Below, one piece after another: positions 36,264 to 45,357 of a stretch of 48,241 bases of DNA (positions are counted from its first letter, which is position 1; each line of letters begins with the position of its first letter). Origin of the DNA: a virus (Duplodnaviria > Heunggongvirae > Uroviricota > Caudoviricetes). Position numbers and translations under genes: made by a program. The notes under the pieces are model-generated. The model was not told where the DNA came from, did no database searches, and saw nothing but the letters and a program-made list of their open reading frames with translations. Location of the stretch: positions 1-48,241 of IMG/VR virus record IMGVR_UViG_2617270956_000008; one strand, given 5' to 3'.

Positions 36264-36419
36264 TTACTCCTCAGGTTCGTAAGCTGTGAAGACAGCGACC
36301 TCCGTCTGGCCGGTTCGGATTCGTACCTCGCAGAGGTCTTTCCTCGTTACCAGTGCCGTCACTATGACGGTTAAACAGATGACGATCAGGGCGATTAACA
36401 TCGCCTTTTGCTGCTTCAT
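36264..36419 (-). CDS. hokD: Hok/Gef-family type I toxin (HokD/RelF-like), 51 aa
   Basis: MKQQKAMLIALIVICLTVIVTALVTRKDLCEVRIRTGQTEVAVFTAYEPEE matches HokD/RelF as recalled; AAGGAG SD 9 nt upstream of the internal ATG. Confidence 0.85.
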   Translation of the reverse strand: MKQQKAMLIALIVICLTVIVTALVTRKDLCEVRIRTGQTEVAVFTAYEPEE

Positions 36420-36630
36420 AGCCTGCTTCTCCTTGCCTTTCGGCACGTAAGAGGCTAACCTACGTTTGTGAAGCATAGATTGGGCCTCAGATTAATGTTA
36501 AACGTCTTGCAGGACGCGTAATGTTAACTGGGGCTTTTCTCTATCTGCCGTTGGTGTTCATGCCCGAGGCAGATAGCCTCAAGCACCCGCAGCAATTCTA
36601 CTTAACTCACGTCACCTCGCCAATATAAAA

Positions 36631-36962: not shown

Positions 36963-37478
36963 TCATCGCAAAACATCCTCCGCGCTTATCAGTTCGTTCC
37001 GCTTCAGGTAGTCCATCGCCTTCTCCGGTAATTTGCAGTCTGGATTAGCTTTTTTCAGTTGACTGACCAGTCGTTTAACCCACATTGTTAATTCGCCAAC
37101 TTGGTTACTGGATGCTAATGGATTGTCGGCTTTACCCAGAATGACAGCACAGCAGGCCTCTTTGAGAACCCAATCAACAGCATCTTTCCATACTCCTGTT
37201 TCGACTGGTGGATTCTCACGCTTTACCTGTTCATAAAAGCGCACGGCTTTAACCAGTCCTTCTGATGTCACCGGGACTGGCGGGCCGATGAATAAGGCCT
37301 GAATTTCATAGTTCGGCCTGTCGTTACAATCCTCTTTTGTCGGTACATATTTCCAGTCACCAGCCCACGGCTTCCCCTGAAAGTCTGTAACGTCTTTTTT
37401 CACGTAGCGATATCGCCATGCAACTGGTTTTGCCTGCCCTGCCGTTTCATGCCCTTCCTGATAATTAATCTCGCTCAT
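36963..37478 (-). CDS. hypothetical phage protein (171 aa)
   Basis: ORF coupled to the upstream small ORF by an ATGA overlap. Confidence 0.5.
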   Translation of the reverse strand: MSEINYQEGHETAGQAKPVAWRYRYVKKDVTDFQGKPWAGDWKYVPTKEDCNDRPNYEIQALFIGPPVPVTSEGLVKAVRFYEQVKRENPPVETGVWKDAVDWVLKEACCAVILGKADNPLASSNQVGELTMWVKRLVSQLKKANPDCKLPEKAMDYLKRNELISAEDVLR

Positions 37479-37651
37479 TCATCGCCCCACTCATCACAAT
37501 ATGCTTCGACCGGAGTTTTTCCTGCTTCATAATCATCACGCCATGCTTCAGCATCAGCAGCACTGCCACCACGTAACTCTGCATAGTCCATTAACAGTTC
37601 ATGCCATGCTTCAAAACTGACGTTGTATTTAGTTGAACCAAAATCAGCCAT
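37475..37651 (-). CDS. small acidic protein (58 aa)
   Basis: Not in the ORF track; ATG at 37649-37651; stop overlaps the next gene's start. Confidence 0.4.
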   Translation of the reverse strand: MADFGSTKYNVSFEAWHELLMDYAELRGGSAADAEAWRDDYEAGKTPVEAYCDEWGDE

Positions 37652-37826
37652 TTTGCTCTTCCTCTTCGTCTTTTATTTCGTGATATGAGTAATTGCAGTA
37701 GTTAAAGAAAATATCTTTTGCTTCGTCATGTATTTCATCAGGCGTCGCATCATCATCCACTTCGAATTCATCCTCGAAATCTCCACCGGCTATTCCCGTT
37801 TCAATAATTATTTTAAACTTTCGCAT
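37644..37826 (-). CDS. small acidic protein (60 aa)
   Basis: ORF preceded by the SD-hairpin module. Confidence 0.4.
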   Translation of the reverse strand: MRKFKIIIETGIAGGDFEDEFEVDDDATPDEIHDEAKDIFFNYCNYSYHEIKDEEEEQNG

Positions 37827-37833
37827 TTAACTA

Positions 37834-37849
37834 CCGCCCTTTCGGGCGG
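37834..37849 (-). promoter_or_regulatory. GNRA-tetraloop hairpin (mRNA CCGCCCGAAAGGGCGG) inserted between SD-like AGGAGG and start codon, copy 1
   Basis: Minus strand reads AGGAGG-CCGCCCGAAAGGGCGG-TAGTTAA-ATG. Confidence 0.4.
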
Positions 37850-37919
37850 CCTCCTGATGTTCTGAGGGTGCAGAAATCCCTCCGGTTAAGGATTAAATTT
37901 TTAACAGAGCTAAATTTAA

Positions 37920-38276
37920 TTATTCAGTTCTGGATTTTGTCGCCCTGCGTATCCGCGCTTTCGCGTTACGCTCAATCTGAATTAGCTTTTCTATATTTTT
38001 TCGCCTTTCCCGCTCCTCCTGACGCAAGAGCCTTACATCATCTGCCAGTCTGGTTTCTCTTTTCGCCACAGAGAGCATCCAGTCAAATGGCTCCACAACT
38101 GCACCGCAGATTTTACAGCGGACCTGACGCTCTTTTTCGTCAACCCGGACAGAGGCGTGATGACAATATGGTCTTTCCGATGGCTCATAAAGAAAATTAA
38201 CCTGATTACGAGGGTCATCCTCTTTTACCGGAAATAAAACGATATTGCTTAACTCATCCTCTGGTTTTATTTCCAT
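37920..38276 (-). CDS. putative zinc-binding small protein (118 aa)
   Basis: Internal ATG with AAAGGAGAGGAG SD (the track start is GTG at 38333); CHH ... CKIC Cys/His pattern. Confidence 0.5.
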   Translation of the reverse strand: MEIKPEDELSNIVLFPVKEDDPRNQVNFLYEPSERPYCHHASVRVDEKERQVRCKICGAVVEPFDWMLSVAKRETRLADDVRLLRQEERERRKNIEKLIQIERNAKARIRRATKSRTE

Positions 38277-38397
38277 GCTCCTCTCCTTTGATGCGAATGC
38301 CAGCGGTAATTGAAGCCTGATAGCTAATTTCACTCACAGTACCGCCTCCTGAAAATTTAATGAACAATTCAATACGTTCTTTGGTAATAGTGGTCAT
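38254..38397 (-). CDS. candidate small ORF (47 aa)
   Basis: ATG with GGAG SD directly after the upstream stop; overlaps the start of the 118-aa gene. Confidence 0.3.
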   Translation of the reverse strand: MTTITKERIELFIKFSGGGTVSEISYQASITAGIRIKGEEHGNKTRG

Positions 38398-38407
38398 GTG
38401 TTACTCC

Positions 38408-38671
38408 TTAACCCGCAGTGCTTTCAACTGATGAGGGGAACAAAATCTTTTCATCAAACCCTGCATTCATATCATGAACAGCAACACACCAATCCATCGA
38501 CGAACGATTATCAAGAGCCTCCATGATTTCATCCATGCGGCGTAGGTCATACAGGTAAATGCTTTTATCGCCAATGGTGTAAAAGCCAATTTTTTTCGGT
38601 GATGGACAGCGATCAAGAACTTCCTGTAATTCGTTCAACCATGCCCGTTCTTTTTTTGTCAAAGTTGCCAT
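38408..38671 (-). CDS. hypothetical phage protein (about 87 aa)
   Basis: Internal ATG at 38669-38671, 1 nt after the stop of the upstream gene. Confidence 0.45.
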   Translation of the reverse strand: MATLTKKERAWLNELQEVLDRCPSPKKIGFYTIGDKSIYLYDLRRMDEIMEALDNRSSMDWCVAVHDMNAGFDEKILFPSSVESTAG

Positions 38672-38672
38672 A

Positions 38673-38891
38673 TCAGTTTTCCTTATACGGATTAATTTTA
38701 TTGTGCAGTGTGTTGAACGACGCCCATACAACGTCGGTATACAATTCAGTAACTGGCTCAATTATTTTCCCGATTGCCCAGACAAAAATTAGAGGGGATA
38801 TCGGTATCATCAATACGATAAACAGAATGAGAAACAAAAATTCTGTTGCCCTACTTTTTTGCGGATATTCTTTTCTGAATAATGTAGTCAT
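38673..38891 (-). CDS. small membrane protein (72 aa), possible Kil-like or exclusion function
   Basis: Hydrophobic core FLFLILFIVLMIPISPLIFVWAIG; preceded by the SD-hairpin module. Confidence 0.5.
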   Translation of the reverse strand: MTTLFRKEYPQKSRATEFLFLILFIVLMIPISPLIFVWAIGKIIEPVTELYTDVVWASFNTLHNKINPYKEN

Positions 38892-38897
38892 TTCTTA

Positions 38898-38913
38898 CCG
38901 CCCTTTCGGGCGG
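38898..38913 (-). promoter_or_regulatory. GNRA-tetraloop hairpin between SD-like GGGAGG and start codon, copy 2
   Basis: Minus strand reads GGGAGG-CCGCCCGAAAGGGCGG-TAAGAA-ATG; identical hairpin to copy 1. Confidence 0.4.
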
Positions 38914-38923
38914 CCTCCCGACA

Positions 38924-39136
38924 TTAATCGTTGTGGTAACTCATGGCTTCATTTGCAGCATCAACCGGATCAACCTCCCACCAGCAATAATTTGGTGCGT
39001 TTCCTTCAGGTGTCCACGGTTCTAATTCATTTTTTGCCACATTCTCGTCGCCAGTAATTTTAAAAATCTGCTCAGAGAATTTTTTCACCCACTCGTTATA
39101 TTTTTCAGTGTTAATAATTTTCTGTGTATTTGACAT
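38924..39136 (-). CDS. hypothetical phage protein (70 aa)
   Basis: ATG with GGAGG SD 7 nt upstream, inside a repeated roughly 60-bp leader element. Confidence 0.5.
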   Translation of the reverse strand: MSNTQKIINTEKYNEWVKKFSEQIFKITGDENVAKNELEPWTPEGNAPNYCWWEVDPVDAANEAMSYHND

Positions 39137-39331
39137 AGATATACCTCCAGTTAAGGATTAAATTTTATTTACAGTGCTGAACTTAATTATTCAGATTTGG
39201 ATTATGCTTTCTCTTCACGAAGTTCCGATTGTTAATTTGGCTCACAACAGCACCTTCTGAAAATTACCCTGATAGAAAGCCAGTACACGCTGCATAGCTT
39301 CGCTCTTCCGGCACTCGCTACAGATTATGTT

Positions 39332-39664
39332 TTAACGCCTGTCGTAGCGGCGTATTTCTCCGTCTGGTAATGACCAGATAAGGTCAGGATCAACCACAGA
39401 TGGTTTCTTCAGATTTGCCCTTGAGAGTTTTTTGCGGGCGTTTTGCCAGTCCTTACGCGCCTGTTCAGACGGGAATAACCCGTAACCAGAGTTGTATACA
39501 TCGCCACTGGCAACCAGCTCTCTGGCGAGAACACTCATCAGATATCTTGTCGCACCTGTCTTGGCTTCCAGTTGCCGCAACGTCTCGCGACCGCTCAGAC
39601 GTACAAGTTCAACAACCTGCCCTTTAATTTTTTCCCGCTCTTCTTGTGTAAATACTTTTGCCAT
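39332..39664 (-). CDS. hypothetical phage protein (about 110 aa)
   Basis: ATG (M6 of the track ORF) with GGAGG SD 5 nt upstream. Confidence 0.45.
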   Translation of the reverse strand: MAKVFTQEEREKIKGQVVELVRLSGRETLRQLEAKTGATRYLMSVLARELVASGDVYNSGYGLFPSEQARKDWQNARKKLSRANLKKPSVVDPDLIWSLPDGEIRRYDRR

Positions 39665-39679
39665 AAGCGCCTCCGGCAA

Positions 39680-40441
39680 TCACTTTTCCGATACAACACG
39701 GCGGGAAGAATCAGTAATCTGTCGAACAATATCCCGGTGCTTGTTCAGCTCCCGCAGCGCGGCGCAGACTCGCTCCCACTTCTGAACATCACTTTTCGCC
39801 CTGCGCAGCGCCAGGTTTGCCCTGCGAAGGGACGGAAAAATCAGCTCATCTGCTTGCGTTTCGGTAAACGATGGCAACGACTGCACAATGTCCGCCACAG
39901 TTTCTGTTTTAATTTCTTCCTGTGTTGCGGCTTCCCGGACTGGTAACGCAGCACCTGCTGGCTGAGGAAAGGCCTTACCATCACTTTCCTTTACCAGCGC
40001 GGCTTTCGGCTCTGCTGGTAAATTATCGCCCGGCATGCAGTAACGAAATTTACCGTTCTGATTAACGCGAATCAGACGACCTTTACTGATTGCCATTGCC
40101 AGCGTTGAAGCCACTTTGCGTGATGTGATGCCGAAAAACGTAGCCAGTTCATCCGCCGTTTGTGGGCCACGTTGTTCAATCGTCGCAGTTAAATCGCTCT
40201 CCGAAATTTTAGCGACTGTTGCCGTGGTGGTTTCTTCCGACAGTTCTGCCGGCGCTGGCTGTTCCCGCTGAACGTTGTTATAAGCCACACGCCAGGTGTA
40301 CGCGCTTTTATCAACGAAACCAGCCTTTTTCAGTTCCCATAGTTCGTTCAGCACTTCTTCACGACTGATATCAAGTCGCGCAGCCAGTTCTACCGACGTG
40401 GCTTTTCCCATCACTTTCAGTGCGTCAAAAACAGTCTCCAT
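39680..40441 (-). CDS. hypothetical protein, possible winged-helix DNA-binding protein (253 aa)
   Basis: Two HTH-like segments; downstream of the P-like gene. Confidence 0.45.
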
Positions 40442-40473: not shown

Positions 40474-41139
40474 TCAAACAAACCCAGCCGCTTTCCGGCG
40501 TTCATATTCCTGTTTCAGCAACTCAATTGGCGTTGGCCCCGACGGGCGTTTGGGTGCCGCCAGTTGTCGCCGGACTGGCGGAACGCTCAGGCCGTTACTA
40601 ACATGCTTTGCCCATTTCGCCAGCTGCCGTTCTGCAAGCCGTTTTAATTCCCCTTCGGTCATCTGGCGCTCAATCCCCTTTGAACGCATCTCGAGGCAAA
40701 TGTGATACAGCACAGGCTGAGACCACGGGTACTTATCACTTCCGTCATATCGCCAGGACTCATTGCGCCAGCGGCGGTACTCCTCCATCACAGCATCCAC
40801 CGTCAGACCGAATGGATTGGCTCCGCTTTCCGAAATCAGTGCCACAAACTCAGCCAGGTCCGGAGGCCATGTTTCACCCGCCCGGCAGCGGTCCATGCAC
40901 TGGCGGCAGACCTGTCGGATTTGCTGCTCAGTCATCGCGCCAATCTGTGCAATCCAGAGCTTCGAAGGTGCGGCCCCGTTCTTCTGGGTCCAGCGGTTCG
41001 AATAAACCTCCCCCATGAGTTCCCACAGCTTCCAGACCGTTTCCGTCGCTGATAAATCCGTTTTCACGTTCCCACTGCTCACGTGCTGCCCGAATTTCCT
41101 GAACTGCCCGTGATGCGGTGCCACCTGGTGCTGCTGCAT
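40474..41139 (-). CDS. replication protein P-like (helicase loader), 221 aa
   Basis: Pattern GAMTEQQIRQV...YPWSQPVLYHICLEM...TEGELKRLAERQL parallels lambda P as recalled; overlaps the O-like ORF out of frame by 212 nt. Confidence 0.55.
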   Translation of the reverse strand: MQQHQVAPHHGQFRKFGQHVSSGNVKTDLSATETVWKLWELMGEVYSNRWTQKNGAAPSKLWIAQIGAMTEQQIRQVCRQCMDRCRAGETWPPDLAEFVALISESGANPFGLTVDAVMEEYRRWRNESWRYDGSDKYPWSQPVLYHICLEMRSKGIERQMTEGELKRLAERQLAKWAKHVSNGLSVPPVRRQLAAPKRPSGPTPIELLKQEYERRKAAGFV

Positions 41140-42043
41140 GGTTTACCCCCTTGCTGACTGGTTTAACCTGCGCCCTGACGTGATTTACGTGACGGGCGAA
41201 TTTCTGCTCCCACTGAATCTGCGTAAACACTTTCCCCTCCGCTGCCCAGTAGTCCCGGAAGGCGGCAAGTTCAGCAGGTGTAAATTCTGTCTCCGGCAAA
41301 GCCATCCCCCACAACGCAGCCCGTCGTCGAAAATCCCGTGACGGATACCAGCTATCGGTCATCGGAAATTTTCCGATGGGTTCGCTCAGGCCATCCAGGA
41401 ATACAAGGGGTGCTGCCTGTAACGACAAAACTTCCTGCTCACTGGTCGGAGCACTCTCGCGTGCGTTATGTGTGGGGTTTAGATCTTTGGGTTCCTTTGG
41501 GTTCCGTGATCCGTTTTTGGGTGTCTTTGATGGAAAATTTGGGTGTCTTTGGTTATTTTCCATGCAGCTAAGAGTTCCGTTTTTGGGTCTGTTTTGTGCT
41601 GAAACATAACCATTTTCGGTACTGTTTTTATTAACAGCACCAATTTTACCCACCTTTAAAGACTCCCGTTTTTGGGTGTATTCAGGCTCGGCAACACTTT
41701 CTTCTACACCGATAAGTCGGTACACCACAATTTGCTTTGTTCTGCCTTTTCTCTCACCGGTATCAACAATTAACCCAATCTCCATCAGGTGTCGTAAGCT
41801 GTCCTGCACAGTCTTTTTGTTCAGTTCCGTTACTTCTGCCAGTGCAGATACAGACGGGTATGCACACAAATCGGCACCGCACATATCAGCAAGCCAGGTC
41901 AATACAGACTTACTGGATGAACTGCCGGTTTTCACCTTTTTAGCCCATCGTAGTGCATCGATACTCATACAAACCCCTGGCAGACATTTGTTTATCTGCA
42001 AAGTAATATTGATATTGCTGACGATACGCATGCTTGAAAGCAA
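40928..42043 (-). CDS. replication initiator O-like protein (N-terminal HTH), up to 371 aa
   Basis: Position after the YdaT-like and Cro-like genes; the true start is probably the ATG at 41968 (MSIDALRWAKK...). Confidence 0.55.
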   Translation of the reverse strand: MLSSMRIVSNINITLQINKCLPGVCMSIDALRWAKKVKTGSSSSKSVLTWLADMCGADLCAYPSVSALAEVTELNKKTVQDSLRHLMEIGLIVDTGERKGRTKQIVVYRLIGVEESVAEPEYTQKRESLKVGKIGAVNKNSTENGYVSAQNRPKNGTLSCMENNQRHPNFPSKTPKNGSRNPKEPKDLNPTHNARESAPTSEQEVLSLQAAPLVFLDGLSEPIGKFPMTDSWYPSRDFRRRAALWGMALPETEFTPAELAAFRDYWAAEGKVFTQIQWEQKFARHVNHVRAQVKPVSKGVNHAAAPGGTASRAVQEIRAAREQWERENGFISDGNGLEAVGTHGGGLFEPLDPEERGRTFEALDCTDWRDD

Positions 42044-44267: not shown

Positions 44268-44325
44268 TTTCTGGTGACGTTTGGCGGTATCAGTTCTACT
44301 CCGTGACTGCTCTGCCGCCCTTTTT
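44268..44325 (+). ncRNA. dicF: DicF small regulatory RNA
   Basis: TTTCTGGTGACGTTTGGCGGTATCAGTTCTACTCCGTGACTGCTCTGCCGCCCTTTTT nearly matches DicF as recalled; GGCGG/CCGCC terminator stem plus T-run. Confidence 0.8.
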
Positions 44326-44799
44326 AAAGTGAATTTTGTGATGCGGTGAATGCGGCTAAGCGCACGCGGAACAGTTAAAACCAAAAACAGTGTTATGGGT
44401 GGATTCTCTGTATCCGGCGTTAATTGTTAACTGGTTAACGTCACCTGGAGGCACCAGGCACCGCATCAACAAAGTTCACTTCGGTGATGAAAGGTAGAGA
44501 AAATGTTGAATGTAGCTATTGAAAACCAGAACGGGTGGAATTATAGTGCACCAGCACCTCATAAAACGGGTGCCGGGCGTGGAAACCCGAAATCATTCAC
44601 GGCGCATAACCGCGCTCAGGCGGTTTTTTTATGCGTTAAGCACAGCCACATTCGCATTATGGTGGGGCGTGCAGGGCAGCCGCAAGGCTGGCCGGGTTCC
44701 GTGATGACCGGTATTTCCACCCCTGTACGTCTCACCACCCTTATGGTCGTGGAAAACCTCGGTGGTGAGTTAATCAAATTCATCGCGGAGGCTGCCATC

Positions 44800-45357
44800 A
44801 TGGCTACTATCCTTACCCTTTCTCACCCTGACGTAACCATCGAAAATGGTCGCGCTGTCACTACGTCTGTTGCGATCGCCGAGTTCTTTGGCAAACGCCA
44901 CGAACGAGTGTTGGATAAAATTCACAATCTGGACTGTTCAGCAAAATTCACTGAGCACAATTTTGTGTTGAGCGAATACACCGACTCAACCGGGCGCAAA
45001 CTCCCAATGTACCAAATCACCAAAAACGGCTTCGTTTTCCTGGTGATGGGGTTCACAGGTAAAAAAGCCGCAACTTTCAAAGAAGCCTACATCGCTGAGT
45101 TCGATCGCATGGAGGAAGAACTGCGCCAGAATAACGCCCCGTCTCCCGACAAAATGATTCACGGGGACGGACGCACCCTGGTTATCCGTCTCGACGAACA
45201 CGGCAATATCAAATTCACTGAAACCGTTCCTGACGGCGCAATGGTCTGCACCCTGGATACCTTCCGGTTTTATCTGGAGAAACAAGGATGGACTCTTGTA
45301 AACCGGAGCGCAATTAAAAATATGACTGTGGAGCAATTGCTAAAAATTCATTGTTGA
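44800..45357 (+). CDS. Rha-family phage regulatory protein (possible antirepressor), 185 aa
   Basis: ATG with GGAGG SD 8 nt upstream; Rha-type motif RAVTTSVAIAEFFGKRHERVLDKIHNLD. The track ORF starts at 44503, but its N-terminal 99 aa look non-coding. Confidence 0.6.
   Translation: MATILTLSHPDVTIENGRAVTTSVAIAEFFGKRHERVLDKIHNLDCSAKFTEHNFVLSEYTDSTGRKLPMYQITKNGFVFLVMGFTGKKAATFKEAYIAEFDRMEEELRQNNAPSPDKMIHGDGRTLVIRLDEHGNIKFTETVPDGAMVCTLDTFRFYLEKQGWTLVNRSAIKNMTVEQLLKIHC

What the first reader, a model, noticed from the sequence alone, without database searches (positions are those of the whole stretch)
37827..39210. Recurrent SD-hairpin-ATG module and a roughly 60-bp repeated leader in the early region
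Two small genes (starts 37826 and 38891) are each preceded by the same arrangement: an AGGAGG or GGGAGG, then the identical 16-nt GNRA-tetraloop hairpin CCGCCCGAAAGGGCGG, then 6-7 nt, then ATG. This places the SD about 23 nt from the start unless the hairpin folds, a split ribosome-binding site reminiscent of T4 gene 38. In addition a roughly 60-bp element (CTGAATAATTAA...AAATTTAATCCTTAAC-GGAGG on the mRNA strand) recurs at 37878-37945 and 39144-39210. Alternatives are boxB-like antitermination hairpins or RNA processing sites.
Basis: seen in the sequence. Interest (0 to 1): 0.55.

Follow-up and report, generated by a model that had tools for sequence, protein, structure and literature searches.

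The report
Hairpin-split ribosome site in prophage linker
Two small genes in an E. coli lambda-like prophage follow the same conserved spacer, in which a very stable RNA hairpin sits between the ribosome-binding sequence and the start codon; it probably works like the split ribosome site of phage T4 gene 38 and also marks a boundary where these prophages swap accessory genes.

Summary
CCGCCCGAAAGGGCGG occurs exactly twice (minus strand, 37834-37849 and 38898-38913). Each copy directly follows GGAGG and lies 7 or 6 nt before an ATG that Pfam and homologues support (DUF7167, DUF4014). The "60-bp leader" also recurs.

The two features are the two ends of one intergenic linker cassette. It reads: stop-rich CTGAATAATTAA, AT-rich stretch, AATCCTTAAC, SD1, then a 22-nt filler or a 70-aa gene, SD2, hairpin, 6-9 nt, ATG.

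The cassette is in 2372 of 5426 complete E. coli genomes, always unannotated, and only in E. coli lambdoid phages. It joins at least 4 upstream gene families to 6 downstream ones.

Its geometry matches T4 gene 38, which I read directly (SD, 16-nt tetraloop hairpin, 6 nt, AUG). Five of the six downstream families have no other SD, and their hairpin-less homologues carry a normal SD 4-8 nt from the ATG. At two stem pairs, G.U-preserving variants outnumber disruptive ones 99 loci to 11, which favours a sense-strand RNA structure.

The most likely function is a hairpin-bridged RBS within a recombination linker. This is untested experimentally. There is no support for boxB, a terminator or any Rfam family. 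I class it as a new member of a known kind, of moderate interest.

The parts
37878..37927 (-). Linker cassette copy 1, 5' half. It holds CTGAATAATTAA (37927-37916; stops in all three frames, including the TAA of the 118-aa gene), an AT-rich stretch, AATCCTTAAC (37894-37885) and SD1 CGGAGGG (37884-37878).
   Evidence: (D2, D6)
37856..37877 (-). 22-nt filler ATTTCTGCACCCTCAGAACATC between SD1 and SD2 (cassette form ii). It is the most variable part of the cassette.
37850..37855 (-). SD2 AGGAGG, directly abutting the hairpin.
   Evidence: duplex with the anti-SD -10.3 kcal/mol
37834..37849 (-). Hairpin CCGCCC-GAAA-GGGCGG, copy 1.
37827..37833 (-). 7-nt A/U-rich spacer TAGTTAA with no SD-like motif. 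Its first T can pair with the last G of SD2.
37644..37826 (-). DUF7167 gene (60 aa), served by copy 1.
39144..39194 (-). Linker cassette copy 2, 5' half. It holds CTGAATAATTAA (39194-39183), an AT-rich stretch, AATCCTTAAC (39159-39150) and SD1 TGGAGG (39149-39144). Here SD1 is the ordinary SD of the 70-aa gene, 7 nt before its ATG.
38924..39136 (-). 70-aa gene of unknown function that occupies the cassette between SD1 and SD2 (cassette form i).
38914..38919 (-). SD2 GGGAGG, copy 2.
38898..38913 (-). Hairpin CCGCCC-GAAA-GGGCGG, copy 2.
38892..38897 (-). 6-nt spacer TAAGAA.
38673..38891 (-). DUF4014 gene (72 aa), served by copy 2.
38895..38924 (-). 9-codon mini-ORF (ATG TCG GGA GGC CGC CCG AAA GGG CGG TAA). 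It starts in the TAATG overlap with the 70-aa gene's stop, spans SD2 and the hairpin, and ends 3 nt before the DUF4014 ATG. It exists only in cassette form i.
   Evidence: read; the GATTAATGTC[A/G]GGAGG context recurs

Best explanation
The hairpin module and the '60-bp leader' are the 3' and 5' ends of one conserved intergenic linker cassette of about 100 nt, found in E. coli lambdoid prophages. The cassette sits between accessory genes of the delayed-early operons. Here that is the nin-like region downstream of the O/P-like replication genes; in Stx2a phages it is the early-left region. Its 3' end, GGAGG followed by the 16-nt C(GAAA)G hairpin and 6-9 A/U-rich nucleotides, most likely acts as a hairpin-bridged ('split') ribosome-binding site. 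In that model the hairpin folds in the mRNA and loops out 16 nt. The SD, 22-23 nt away in the linear sequence, is then brought to an effective 6-7 nt from the AUG, as shown experimentally for T4 genes 38 and 25. Because the same 21-23-nt unit precedes many unrelated genes, it also serves as a shared boundary at which accessory genes are exchanged by homologous recombination. Shown here: the anatomy, the distribution, the mosaic contexts, the match to the T4 gene 38 geometry, the lack of another SD, and the strand-specific preservation of pairing. Inferred: that ribosomes initiate through the folded hairpin, and that recombination in the unit is what shuffles the genes.
For: (1) The T4 gene 37/38 junction, read directly, is TAAGGAG-A-GGGGC-UUCG-GCCCU-UCUAAAU-AUG: an SD, a 16-nt hairpin with an extra-stable tetraloop, 6 nt and AUG, 22 nt in all. 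Here the arrangement is GGAGG, a 16-nt hairpin, 6 or 7 nt and AUG, 22 or 23 nt in all. The T4 mechanism is described in PMC3014915. (2) The hairpin is very stable and forms in context with pairing probability of at least 0.97 for each of the six core pairs. The SD and AUG are at least partly unpaired. GGAGG pairs with the anti-SD at -10.3 kcal/mol; the buried GGGCGG would reach only -6.6. (3) Five of the six downstream gene families (DUF7167, DUF4014, MTELTKE.., MQEIKEN.., MAELTKEW..) have 6-9-nt spacers with no SD-like motif. (4) Homologues of three of these families that lack the hairpin have a canonical SD 4-8 nt from the ATG. These are DUF7167 in Klebsiella phages (GGAGGCTGAGTGATG, GGGAGACTGTGTAATG), DUF4014 (GGGAGTGATATG) and MTELTKE (AAGGAAAACTGAAATG). 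(5) Variant scans of IMG/VR show that at pair C4-G3' 48 loci carry C>U (a G.U pair) and none carries any other change on either side. At the loop-closing pair C6-G1' 51 loci carry C>U, against 4 C>A, 4 G>A and 3 G>U. G.U pairing is valid only in RNA of the sense strand. (6) SD2 and the hairpin are never found apart within the cassette. They vary less than the adjacent filler. (7) Linker behaviour: an identical core lies between 2 upstream contexts and 6 downstream gene families, and the 5' half follows at least 4 unrelated gene ends. BLAST breakpoints against relatives fall at the cassette edges at 39206/39203, 38921, 38894, 37872 and 37834/37832. (8) The cassette is in 2372 of 5426 complete E. 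coli genomes, up to 5 copies each, and always intergenic.
Against: There are no expression, toeprint or structure-probing data. All copies are closely related E. coli sequences, so conservation alone is weak evidence. No double (compensatory) stem change was seen. The variant counts are loci, not independent mutations, and C>T bias on the non-template strand could contribute to the asymmetry. Variants that break one pair do exist (C2>G in L284; C6>A, G1'>A and G1'>U). One downstream family (MEITKER..) has its own GGAG after the hairpin, so the hairpin is not always needed as a bridge. In the context-A fold SD2 is partly paired with the UCCU of AATCCTTAAC, with unpaired probability 0.13-0.75. 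In cassette form i a mini-ORF offers a coupling route that would melt the hairpin.
Confidence: 0.5

Rival explanations
1. The hairpin is mainly an mRNA stability or processing element. It could be a 3' protective stem-loop for the upstream cistron after RNase E cuts the A/U-rich spacer, or a barrier to exonucleases. Its position next to the SD would then be incidental, and the downstream genes would be translated weakly or by coupling.
For: A stable G+C-rich hairpin is followed by an A/U-rich single strand. The MEITKER family carries its own SD after the hairpin. Sense-strand RNA selection fits this reading equally well.
Against: It does not explain why the SD always abuts the stem with no gap. 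It does not explain why five families have 6-9-nt spacers without an SD, nor why hairpin-less homologues have a normal SD. The geometry is that of T4 gene 38.
Confidence: 0.15
2. The element is a pure DNA-level recombination linker, or simply hitch-hiking sequence. On this reading the 21-23-bp unit and the 5' half are conserved only because recombination between prophages spreads them, and the RNA structure has no role.
For: The same core joins different gene pairs, and breakpoints lie at its edges. Short conserved flanking sequences at lambdoid module boundaries have been proposed before (Clark et al. 2001, as cited in PMC2327257). The copies are too similar for conservation to prove function.
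Against: Variation is strongly strand-asymmetric and wobble-preserving: 99 loci with C>U against 4 with G>A at the two pairs scanned. This is not expected for a DNA-level site. Orientation relative to the genes is constant, and the position relative to the ATG is exact.
Confidence: 0.12
3. The hairpin is a negative or regulated translational element. It could hold the SD out of range, or serve as the operator for an RNA-binding protein, so that these accessory genes are kept low or switched.
For: The linear SD-AUG spacing of 22-23 nt is non-functional if the geometry is not accommodated. The GNRA loop is a common protein- and RNA-contact motif. SD2 is partly sequestered in the context-A fold.
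Against: The identical geometry enhances initiation in T4 genes 38 and 25 (PMC3014915). No candidate binding protein was identified. Loop variants GGAA, TAAA and GGCA occur.
Confidence: 0.1
4. For copy 2 (cassette form i) only, the mechanism is a termination-reinitiation relay. Ribosomes finishing the 70-aa gene would restart at the overlapping UAAUG and translate the 9-codon mini-ORF through SD2 and the hairpin. They would stop at UAA and reinitiate 3 nt downstream at the DUF4014 AUG.
For: The mini-ORF (38924-38895) is in the sequence, and the GATTAATGTC[A/G]GGAGG context recurs in all form-i copies. TA(A/G) always follows the hairpin in that frame.
Against: There is no start codon in that frame in form ii (copy 1), which has the same SD-hairpin-AUG unit 90 nt from the nearest stop. 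The relay would make both SD2 and the hairpin's stability pointless.
Confidence: 0.08
5. The hairpin is a boxB-like N-utilisation (antitermination) hairpin, or an intrinsic terminator.
For: It is a GNRA-type loop on a short G+C-rich stem, which resembles lambda boxB only superficially.
Against: There is no boxA near either copy; matches across the window are at chance level and none lies on the right strand nearby. The two copies sit deep inside the operon, directly before start codons, with up to 5 copies per genome. No N gene is annotated in the identical prophage. The loop is a true tetraloop, not the boxB pentaloop. There is no U-tract on either strand and the terminator scan found nothing here. 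There is no Rfam match.
Confidence: 0.02

Closest known systems
Split (hairpin-bridged) translation initiation region of phage T4 gene 38
   Same: An SD is followed at once by a 16-nt hairpin (6 pairs and an extra-stable tetraloop closed by C-G), then 6-7 A/U-rich nt, then AUG. The linear spacing is 22-23 nt. The site lies directly after the preceding gene.
   Different: The loop is GAAA rather than UUCG, and the stem is more stable (-12.4 against -8.6 kcal/mol). The host is a temperate lambdoid prophage, not a T-even phage. The same unit serves several unrelated genes and is a mosaic joint. Function is untested here.
T4 gene 25 'accommodated' ribosome-binding site (26-25 junction) and the E. 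coli thrS split RBS
   Same: A secondary structure lies between the SD (or upstream ribosome contact) and the AUG, and the ribosome accommodates it without unfolding it (PMC3014915; PMC3936740).
   Different: In gene 25 the spacing goes from 27 to 11 nt, through a different structure. The thrS hairpin is a large operator bound by ThrRS for autoregulation. No regulator is known here.
Short conserved 'linker' sequences at module boundaries of lambdoid phages (Clark et al. 2001, HK620; cited in PMC2327257)
   Same: Short conserved intergenic sequences flank exchangeable genes and are shared by a subset of related phages. Breakpoints of homology coincide with them.
   Different: I could not read the original paper, so I cannot say whether this particular sequence was among those described. 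No paper in the searchable library contains the 16-mer.
Lambda/P22 nut-site boxB hairpins
   Same: A short G+C-rich stem with a GNRA-like loop in an early operon.
   Different: There is no boxA, the element is not promoter-proximal, it occurs in several copies, it has a tetraloop rather than a pentaloop, and it always abuts an SD and precedes an ATG.
Intercistronic stabiliser hairpins (REP-type or malE-malF-type)
   Same: A stable hairpin between cistrons of a polycistronic mRNA.
   Different: Those lie after the stop codon and well before the next RBS. This one lies inside the RBS, between the SD and the AUG.

Membership tests
Split / hairpin-bridged RBS (T4 gene 38 type) | A strong SD lies too far (>15 nt) upstream of the authentic start codon in the linear sequence. 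| tested here: met
   GGAGG lies 23 and 22 nt from ATGs that are fixed by in-frame stops, full-length Pfam matches and homologue N-termini.
Split / hairpin-bridged RBS (T4 gene 38 type) | A stable hairpin is wholly contained between the SD and the AUG, and the folded spacing falls in the functional range (about 5-11 nt). | tested here: met
   The hairpin is 16 nt, at -12.4 to -14.4 kcal/mol, with pairing probability of at least 0.97 for each core pair. The residual spacers are 6-7 nt here and 6-9 nt across families. T4 gene 38, read directly, has the same layout.
Split / hairpin-bridged RBS (T4 gene 38 type) | No alternative SD lies at normal distance from the AUG. | tested here: met
   The spacers TAGTTAA, TAAGAA, TAATGAAAA, TAACAAATA and TAATAAAA have no SD-like motif. 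The exception is the MEITKER family, with TGGAGATAATA.
Split / hairpin-bridged RBS (T4 gene 38 type) | The structure is conserved in relatives, with pair-preserving changes. | tested here: inconclusive
   99 loci carry G.U-preserving C>U and 11 carry pair-breaking changes at the two pairs scanned, and only C>U was seen at the inner pair. No double compensatory change was found, the counts are not independent events, and there are no relatives outside E. coli phages.
Split / hairpin-bridged RBS (T4 gene 38 type) | Disrupting the hairpin lowers translation, and restoring it rescues translation. | not testable with these tools
   This needs reporter fusions or toeprinting.
Lambdoid mosaic 'linker' sequence | The same short sequence lies between non-homologous gene pairs in different phages. 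| tested here: met
   The core has 2 upstream contexts and 6 downstream families, and the 5' half follows at least 4 unrelated gene ends.
Lambdoid mosaic 'linker' sequence | Homology breakpoints between genomes coincide with the sequence. | tested here: met
   HSP ends cluster at 39206/39203, 38921/38918, 38894/38890, 37879/37872 and 37832. Other gene boundaries are breakpoints too.
nut site (boxA + boxB) | A boxA (CGCTCTTTA-like) lies a few nt upstream of the hairpin on the same strand. | tested here: not met
   One search found no minus-strand match near either copy, and the window total is at chance level.
nut site (boxA + boxB) | A single promoter-proximal site per early operon, and an N-type antiterminator gene. 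| tested here: not met
   Two copies lie 3-4 kb into the operon, with up to 5 copies per genome. No N gene is annotated in the identical prophage.
Intrinsic terminator | A U-tract directly after the stem. | tested here: not met
   The stem is followed by UAGUUAAAUG or UAAGAAAUG, and the terminator scan found nothing at these sites on either strand.
Any curated RNA family (Rfam 15) | A covariance-model match. | tested here: not met
   There was no match at gathering threshold, and only noise at E<=10, in 37400-39700.

The most novel reading that the evidence does not exclude
The cassette is a portable, self-insulating translation-initiation unit. A fixed SD plus an ultra-stable hairpin would give a context-independent RBS to whatever gene is joined 6-9 nt downstream. 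The stop-rich 5' block would end whatever gene is joined upstream. The cassette's sequence identity would let prophage recombinases swap accessory genes at it. It would thus be a natural 'plug-and-play' gene-cassette system that shapes the accessory content of lambdoid prophages in nearly half of E. coli genomes.
Probability: 0.3. Interest if true: 0.6.

Novelty: new member of a known kind. Interest (0 to 1): 0.42.

Why it matters
Hairpin-bridged ribosome-binding sites are documented for only a few genes (T4 genes 38 and 25, and E. coli thrS). This would be a further natural case, in a different phage lineage. It is present in about 44% of complete E. coli genomes, including Stx2a-converting phages, and the same unit serves several unrelated genes. 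It bears on start-site and RBS prediction, because gene finders and RBS calculators would score these starts as lacking an SD. It also offers a ready-made natural 'insulated RBS' part. Finally, it gives a concrete, testable example of the long-proposed linker sequences that may guide module exchange in lambdoid phages.

Tried and rejected
- **Rfam.** No family matched at gathering threshold over the whole window, or at E<=10 over 37400-39700.
- **Promoter and terminator scan.** Nothing was found at either element.
- **Second hairpin.** A possible GAGGG/CCCTC hairpin in the filler is not supported, because natural variants (GATGG, CCATC, CCCTA) break it and the apparent compensatory case is a register shift.
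- **Other hairpins in the same architecture.** A search of 1.17 Mb of related loci for other hairpins in an SD-hairpin-ATG layout found none of note, so this is one sequence family and not a general structural class.
- **Degenerate scan of genome contigs.** It was flooded by chance hits, Bacteroidota terminators and high-GC coding sequence.
- **Protein-guided locus searches.** They returned almost only near-identical E. coli copies.
- **K-12.** The Rac and Qin prophages lack the element, so K-12 data sets cannot be used.
- **Literature.** No paper holds the 16-mer, and there were no relevant hits for DUF4014, DUF7167 or split-SD terms beyond T4 and thrS. Clark et al. 2001 is not held.
- **L038.** This exact 21-mer match lies inside a P2-like gpM coding sequence and is a coincidence.
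- **boxA.** The search gave chance-level matches only.
Full report
**Context**

The window matches a prophage in the E. coli THO-006 chromosome at 100% identity. It is a Qin/Rac-like lambdoid prophage with dicB, ydfC, a DicA/DicC-like switch, a YdaT-like protein, O/P-like replication genes, hokD/sok, and holin and lysis genes. The finding lies on the minus strand, in the nin-like stretch of small genes between the replication genes (40474-42043) and hokD.

PGAP and ORF listing give the following genes, in order on the minus strand:
- a DUF977 pseudogene, 39242-39664
- a 70-aa gene, 38924-39136
- DUF4014, 38673-38891
- genes of 87, 47 and 118 aa
- DUF7167, 37644-37826
- a 58-aa gene
- a LygF-like gene

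Most of these genes overlap or are separated by 15 nt or less. The only long gaps are the three that hold the features in question, of 105, 32 and 93 nt.

**Check of the observation**

The 16-mer CCGCCCGAAAGGGCGG occurs exactly twice, at 37834-37849 and 38898-38913 on the minus strand. With up to 2 mismatches allowed, 0.03 matches are expected by chance. On the mRNA strand the two sites read:
- AGGAGG-hairpin-TAGTTAA-ATG
- GGGAGG-hairpin-TAAGAA-ATG

Both ATGs are preceded by in-frame stops. Both start full-length Pfam matches, DUF7167 over profile positions 1-60 of 60 and DUF4014 over 1-72 of 72. Klebsiella phage homologues of DUF7167 begin with the same MRK/RFK residues. The starts are therefore secure.

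The hairpin folds as six G-C pairs, plus a G.U pair that uses the last G of the SD, around a GAAA loop. Its free energy is -12.4 to -14.4 kcal/mol, and each of the six core pairs has a pairing probability of at least 0.97 in 110-nt contexts. The ~60-bp repeat is also real: 37872-37939 versus 39137-39206, at 81-90% identity.

**What the two features are**

The core has only two upstream contexts:
- Context A: ...AATCCTTAAC-CGGAGGG-ATTTCTGCACCCTCAGAACATC-AGGAGG-hairpin
- Context B: the end of the 70-aa gene, ...GATTAATGTC(A/G)-GGAGG-hairpin

Conversely, only two things ever follow AATCCTTAAC:
- Form i: YGGAGG-TATATCT-ATG, then the 70-aa gene, which ends in context B.
- Form ii: context A, with the 22-nt filler.

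In copy 2 the 70-aa gene separates them (form i). In copy 1 the 22-nt filler separates them (form ii). The two cassette copies in the window bracket a four-gene block.

**The 5' half**

The 5' half begins with CTGAATAATTAA, which has a stop in each reading frame. At least four unrelated upstream gene ends run into it, and they use two of the three stops:
- ...KSRTE*
- ...AEQIRAPE*, an Ead/Ea22-like end
- ...LQIRISE*
- ...HNPNLNN*

A small A/U hairpin (CUGAAU/AUUYAG) is predicted there. I did not test it further.

**The 3' half**

Six gene families follow the hairpin:
- DUF7167
- DUF4014
- MTELTKE..
- MQEIKEN..
- MAELTKEW..
- MEITKER..

Sequence divergence between contexts begins immediately 5' of GGAGG and immediately 3' of GGGCGG(TA).

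**Breakpoints**

Homology breakpoints between this window and other phages fall at the cassette edges.
- Stx2a phages start at 39203.
- Phage Ro157c2YLVW spans 39206-37872.
- phiSTEC1589 spans 38921-37832, that is hairpin to hairpin.
- pPE4 starts at 38894.
- Rac-SA53 ends at 37834.

A local BLAST against 284 loci shows end clusters at the same places. It also shows clusters at other gene boundaries, which is typical of lambdoid mosaicism.

**Distribution**

The context-A 65-mer is found in 19 of 50,697 phage records. Eighteen are E. coli lambdoid phages (Rac-like, Stx2a-converting, mEp460). The other is labelled an Actinobacillus phage, a label I doubt. The 65-mer is in 2372 of 5426 complete E. 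coli genomes, at 1-5 copies, and never under an annotated feature. K-12 Rac and Qin lack it. No paper in the searchable library contains the 16-mer.

**Evidence on mechanism**

1. Geometry. I read the T4 gene 37/38 junction directly: TAAGGAG-A-GGGGC-UUCG-GCCCU-UCUAAAU-AUG. That is an SD, a 16-nt hairpin with an extra-stable tetraloop closed by C-G, six nucleotides and AUG, 22 nt in all. The module here has 22 and 23 nt, a 16-nt hairpin with C(GAAA)G, and 6 and 7 nt. For T4 genes 38 and 25 the structure brings the SD to a functional distance (22 to 5 nt, and 27 to 11 nt). Mutations that destabilise the structure reduce initiation (PMC3014915).

2. No other SD. Five of the six downstream families have 6-9-nt A/U spacers with no SD-like motif. 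MEITKER.. is the exception, with TGGAGATAATA-ATG. The 3' arm GGGCGG is a poor SD (-6.6 against -10.3 kcal/mol) and is buried in the stem.

3. Hairpin-less homologues have ordinary SDs at ordinary spacing.
   - DUF7167 in Klebsiella phages: GGAGG-CTGAGTG-ATG and GGGAG-ACTGTGTA-ATG.
   - DUF4014: GGGAG-TGAT-ATG.
   - MTELTKE: AAGGA-AAACTGAA-ATG.
   
   Deleting the 16 nt from the E. coli versions gives GGAGG plus 6-9 nt plus ATG, which is a canonical RBS.

4. RNA-level selection. IMG/VR scans that force a non-canonical base at one stem position gave the following.
   - C6: 51 loci with C>U, in at least 13 flank contexts, and 4 with C>A.
   - G1', its partner: 4 loci with G>A, all in the MEITKER family that has its own SD, and 3 with G>U.
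   - C4: 48 loci with C>U in the cassette and nothing else.
   - G3', its partner: no variant in the cassette.
   
   Pair-keeping changes therefore outnumber pair-breaking ones by 99 loci to 11. All of the breaking changes are at the loop-closing pair. Among transitions, C>U outnumbers G>A by 99 to 4. A G.U pair is possible only in RNA of the sense strand. This argues for a sense-strand RNA structure and against a DNA-level or antisense role.
   
   There are caveats. Loci are not independent events, and non-template-strand C>T bias may contribute. No double compensatory change was seen. One phage clade carries a disruptive C2>G.

5. SD2 and the hairpin are never found apart within the cassette. 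They vary less per nucleotide than the filler between SD1 and SD2.

**Alternatives**

- boxB/nut fails its defining features. There is no boxA, the element is not promoter-proximal, it occurs in several copies, it has a tetraloop, and no N gene is annotated.
- An intrinsic terminator fails. There is no U-tract, and the scan found nothing.
- There is no Rfam family match.
- A role in mRNA stability or processing cannot be excluded. It fits the RNA-level selection equally well, but it does not explain points 1 to 3.
- A purely DNA-level linker is disfavoured by point 4.
- In form i only, a 9-codon mini-ORF (38924-38895) starts in the TAATG overlap with the 70-aa gene's stop. It runs through SD2 and the hairpin and ends 3 nt before the DUF4014 ATG. 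This could act as a termination-reinitiation relay. Form ii has no start codon in that frame, so this cannot be the general mechanism.
- The fold of context A also pairs part of SD2 with the UCCU of AATCCTTAAC. I regard this as weak.

**Verdict**

The 'repeated leader' is reinterpreted as the other end of the same cassette. That cassette behaves as the kind of short conserved boundary sequence proposed for lambdoid module exchange (Clark et al. 2001, as cited in PMC2327257).

I rate it a new member of a known kind: a hairpin-bridged RBS, here deployed as a portable unit at mosaic joints. My confidence is about 0.5 in the split-RBS mechanism. It is about 0.85 that the element is a conserved linker cassette, and about 0.7 that the hairpin is maintained as a sense-strand RNA structure.

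Noticed in passing
window 36264-36588 (-): A hok/sok type I toxin-antitoxin locus lies here. The sok RNA (Rfam RF01794, 113 bits) is at 36414-36588, and the hokD ORF lies inside 36264-36476. It sits immediately downstream of the small-gene region.
   Followed up: no
window 44269-44742 (+): Three known small RNAs lie in a row: DicF (44269-44320), isrK (44554-44630) and C4 antisense RNA (44655-44742). The last two overlap the start of a Rha-family gene (44503-45357). This looks like a P1/P7-like c4/ant-type control module next to dicB.
   Followed up: no
window 39242-39664 (-): The DUF977 gene is a pseudogene with an internal TAA at 39332-39334 (PGAP: 'internal stop'). Its natural end overlaps (GTGA) a 20-codon ORF that runs into the cassette's stop block. 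In other loci that ...HNPNLNN* end closes an open reading frame of at least 40 codons.
   Followed up: partly
window 41486-41682: Iteron-like direct repeats (TTTGGGTGTCTTTG, 3 copies; CCGTTTTTGGGT.., 3 copies) lie inside the O-like (DnaT-like domain) replication gene. They probably mark the prophage replication origin.
   Followed up: no
window 38319-38357 vs 39227-39265: This is a third short homology (39 nt, 77%). The end of DUF977 with its GTGA overlap resembles a segment inside the 47-aa ORF and the start of the 137-aa reading frame. It may be another remnant boundary sequence.
   Followed up: no
PP818812.1 (hits H13, H56, H83): A record named 'Actinobacillus phage vB_Apl-pPE4' carries the E. 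coli cassette at 100% identity and the adjacent gene block at 93%. The host assignment looks doubtful, or the transfer is very recent.
   Followed up: no
L038 11456-11476: The identical 21-mer GGAGGCCGCCCGAAAGGGCGG occurs inside the coding sequence of a P2-like terminase gpM homologue (...QEAARKGG...). This is a coincidence, unrelated to the cassette.
   Followed up: yes
L156 and L124 (IMG/VR loci): These are rare rearranged cassettes. L156 has a novel joint inside the 3' arm of the hairpin. L124 and two others have a deletion that removes SD2 and part of the 5' arm upstream of DUF7167, leaving a 4-bp stem and no obvious SD.
   Followed up: partly
window 37916-37927 and 39183-39194 (-): The cassette starts with CTGAATAATTAA, which has stop codons in all three frames. 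It is followed by a small predicted A/U hairpin (CUGAAU/AUUYAG) whose two window copies differ by pair-keeping changes. I did not test whether this is more than AT-richness.
   Followed up: partly
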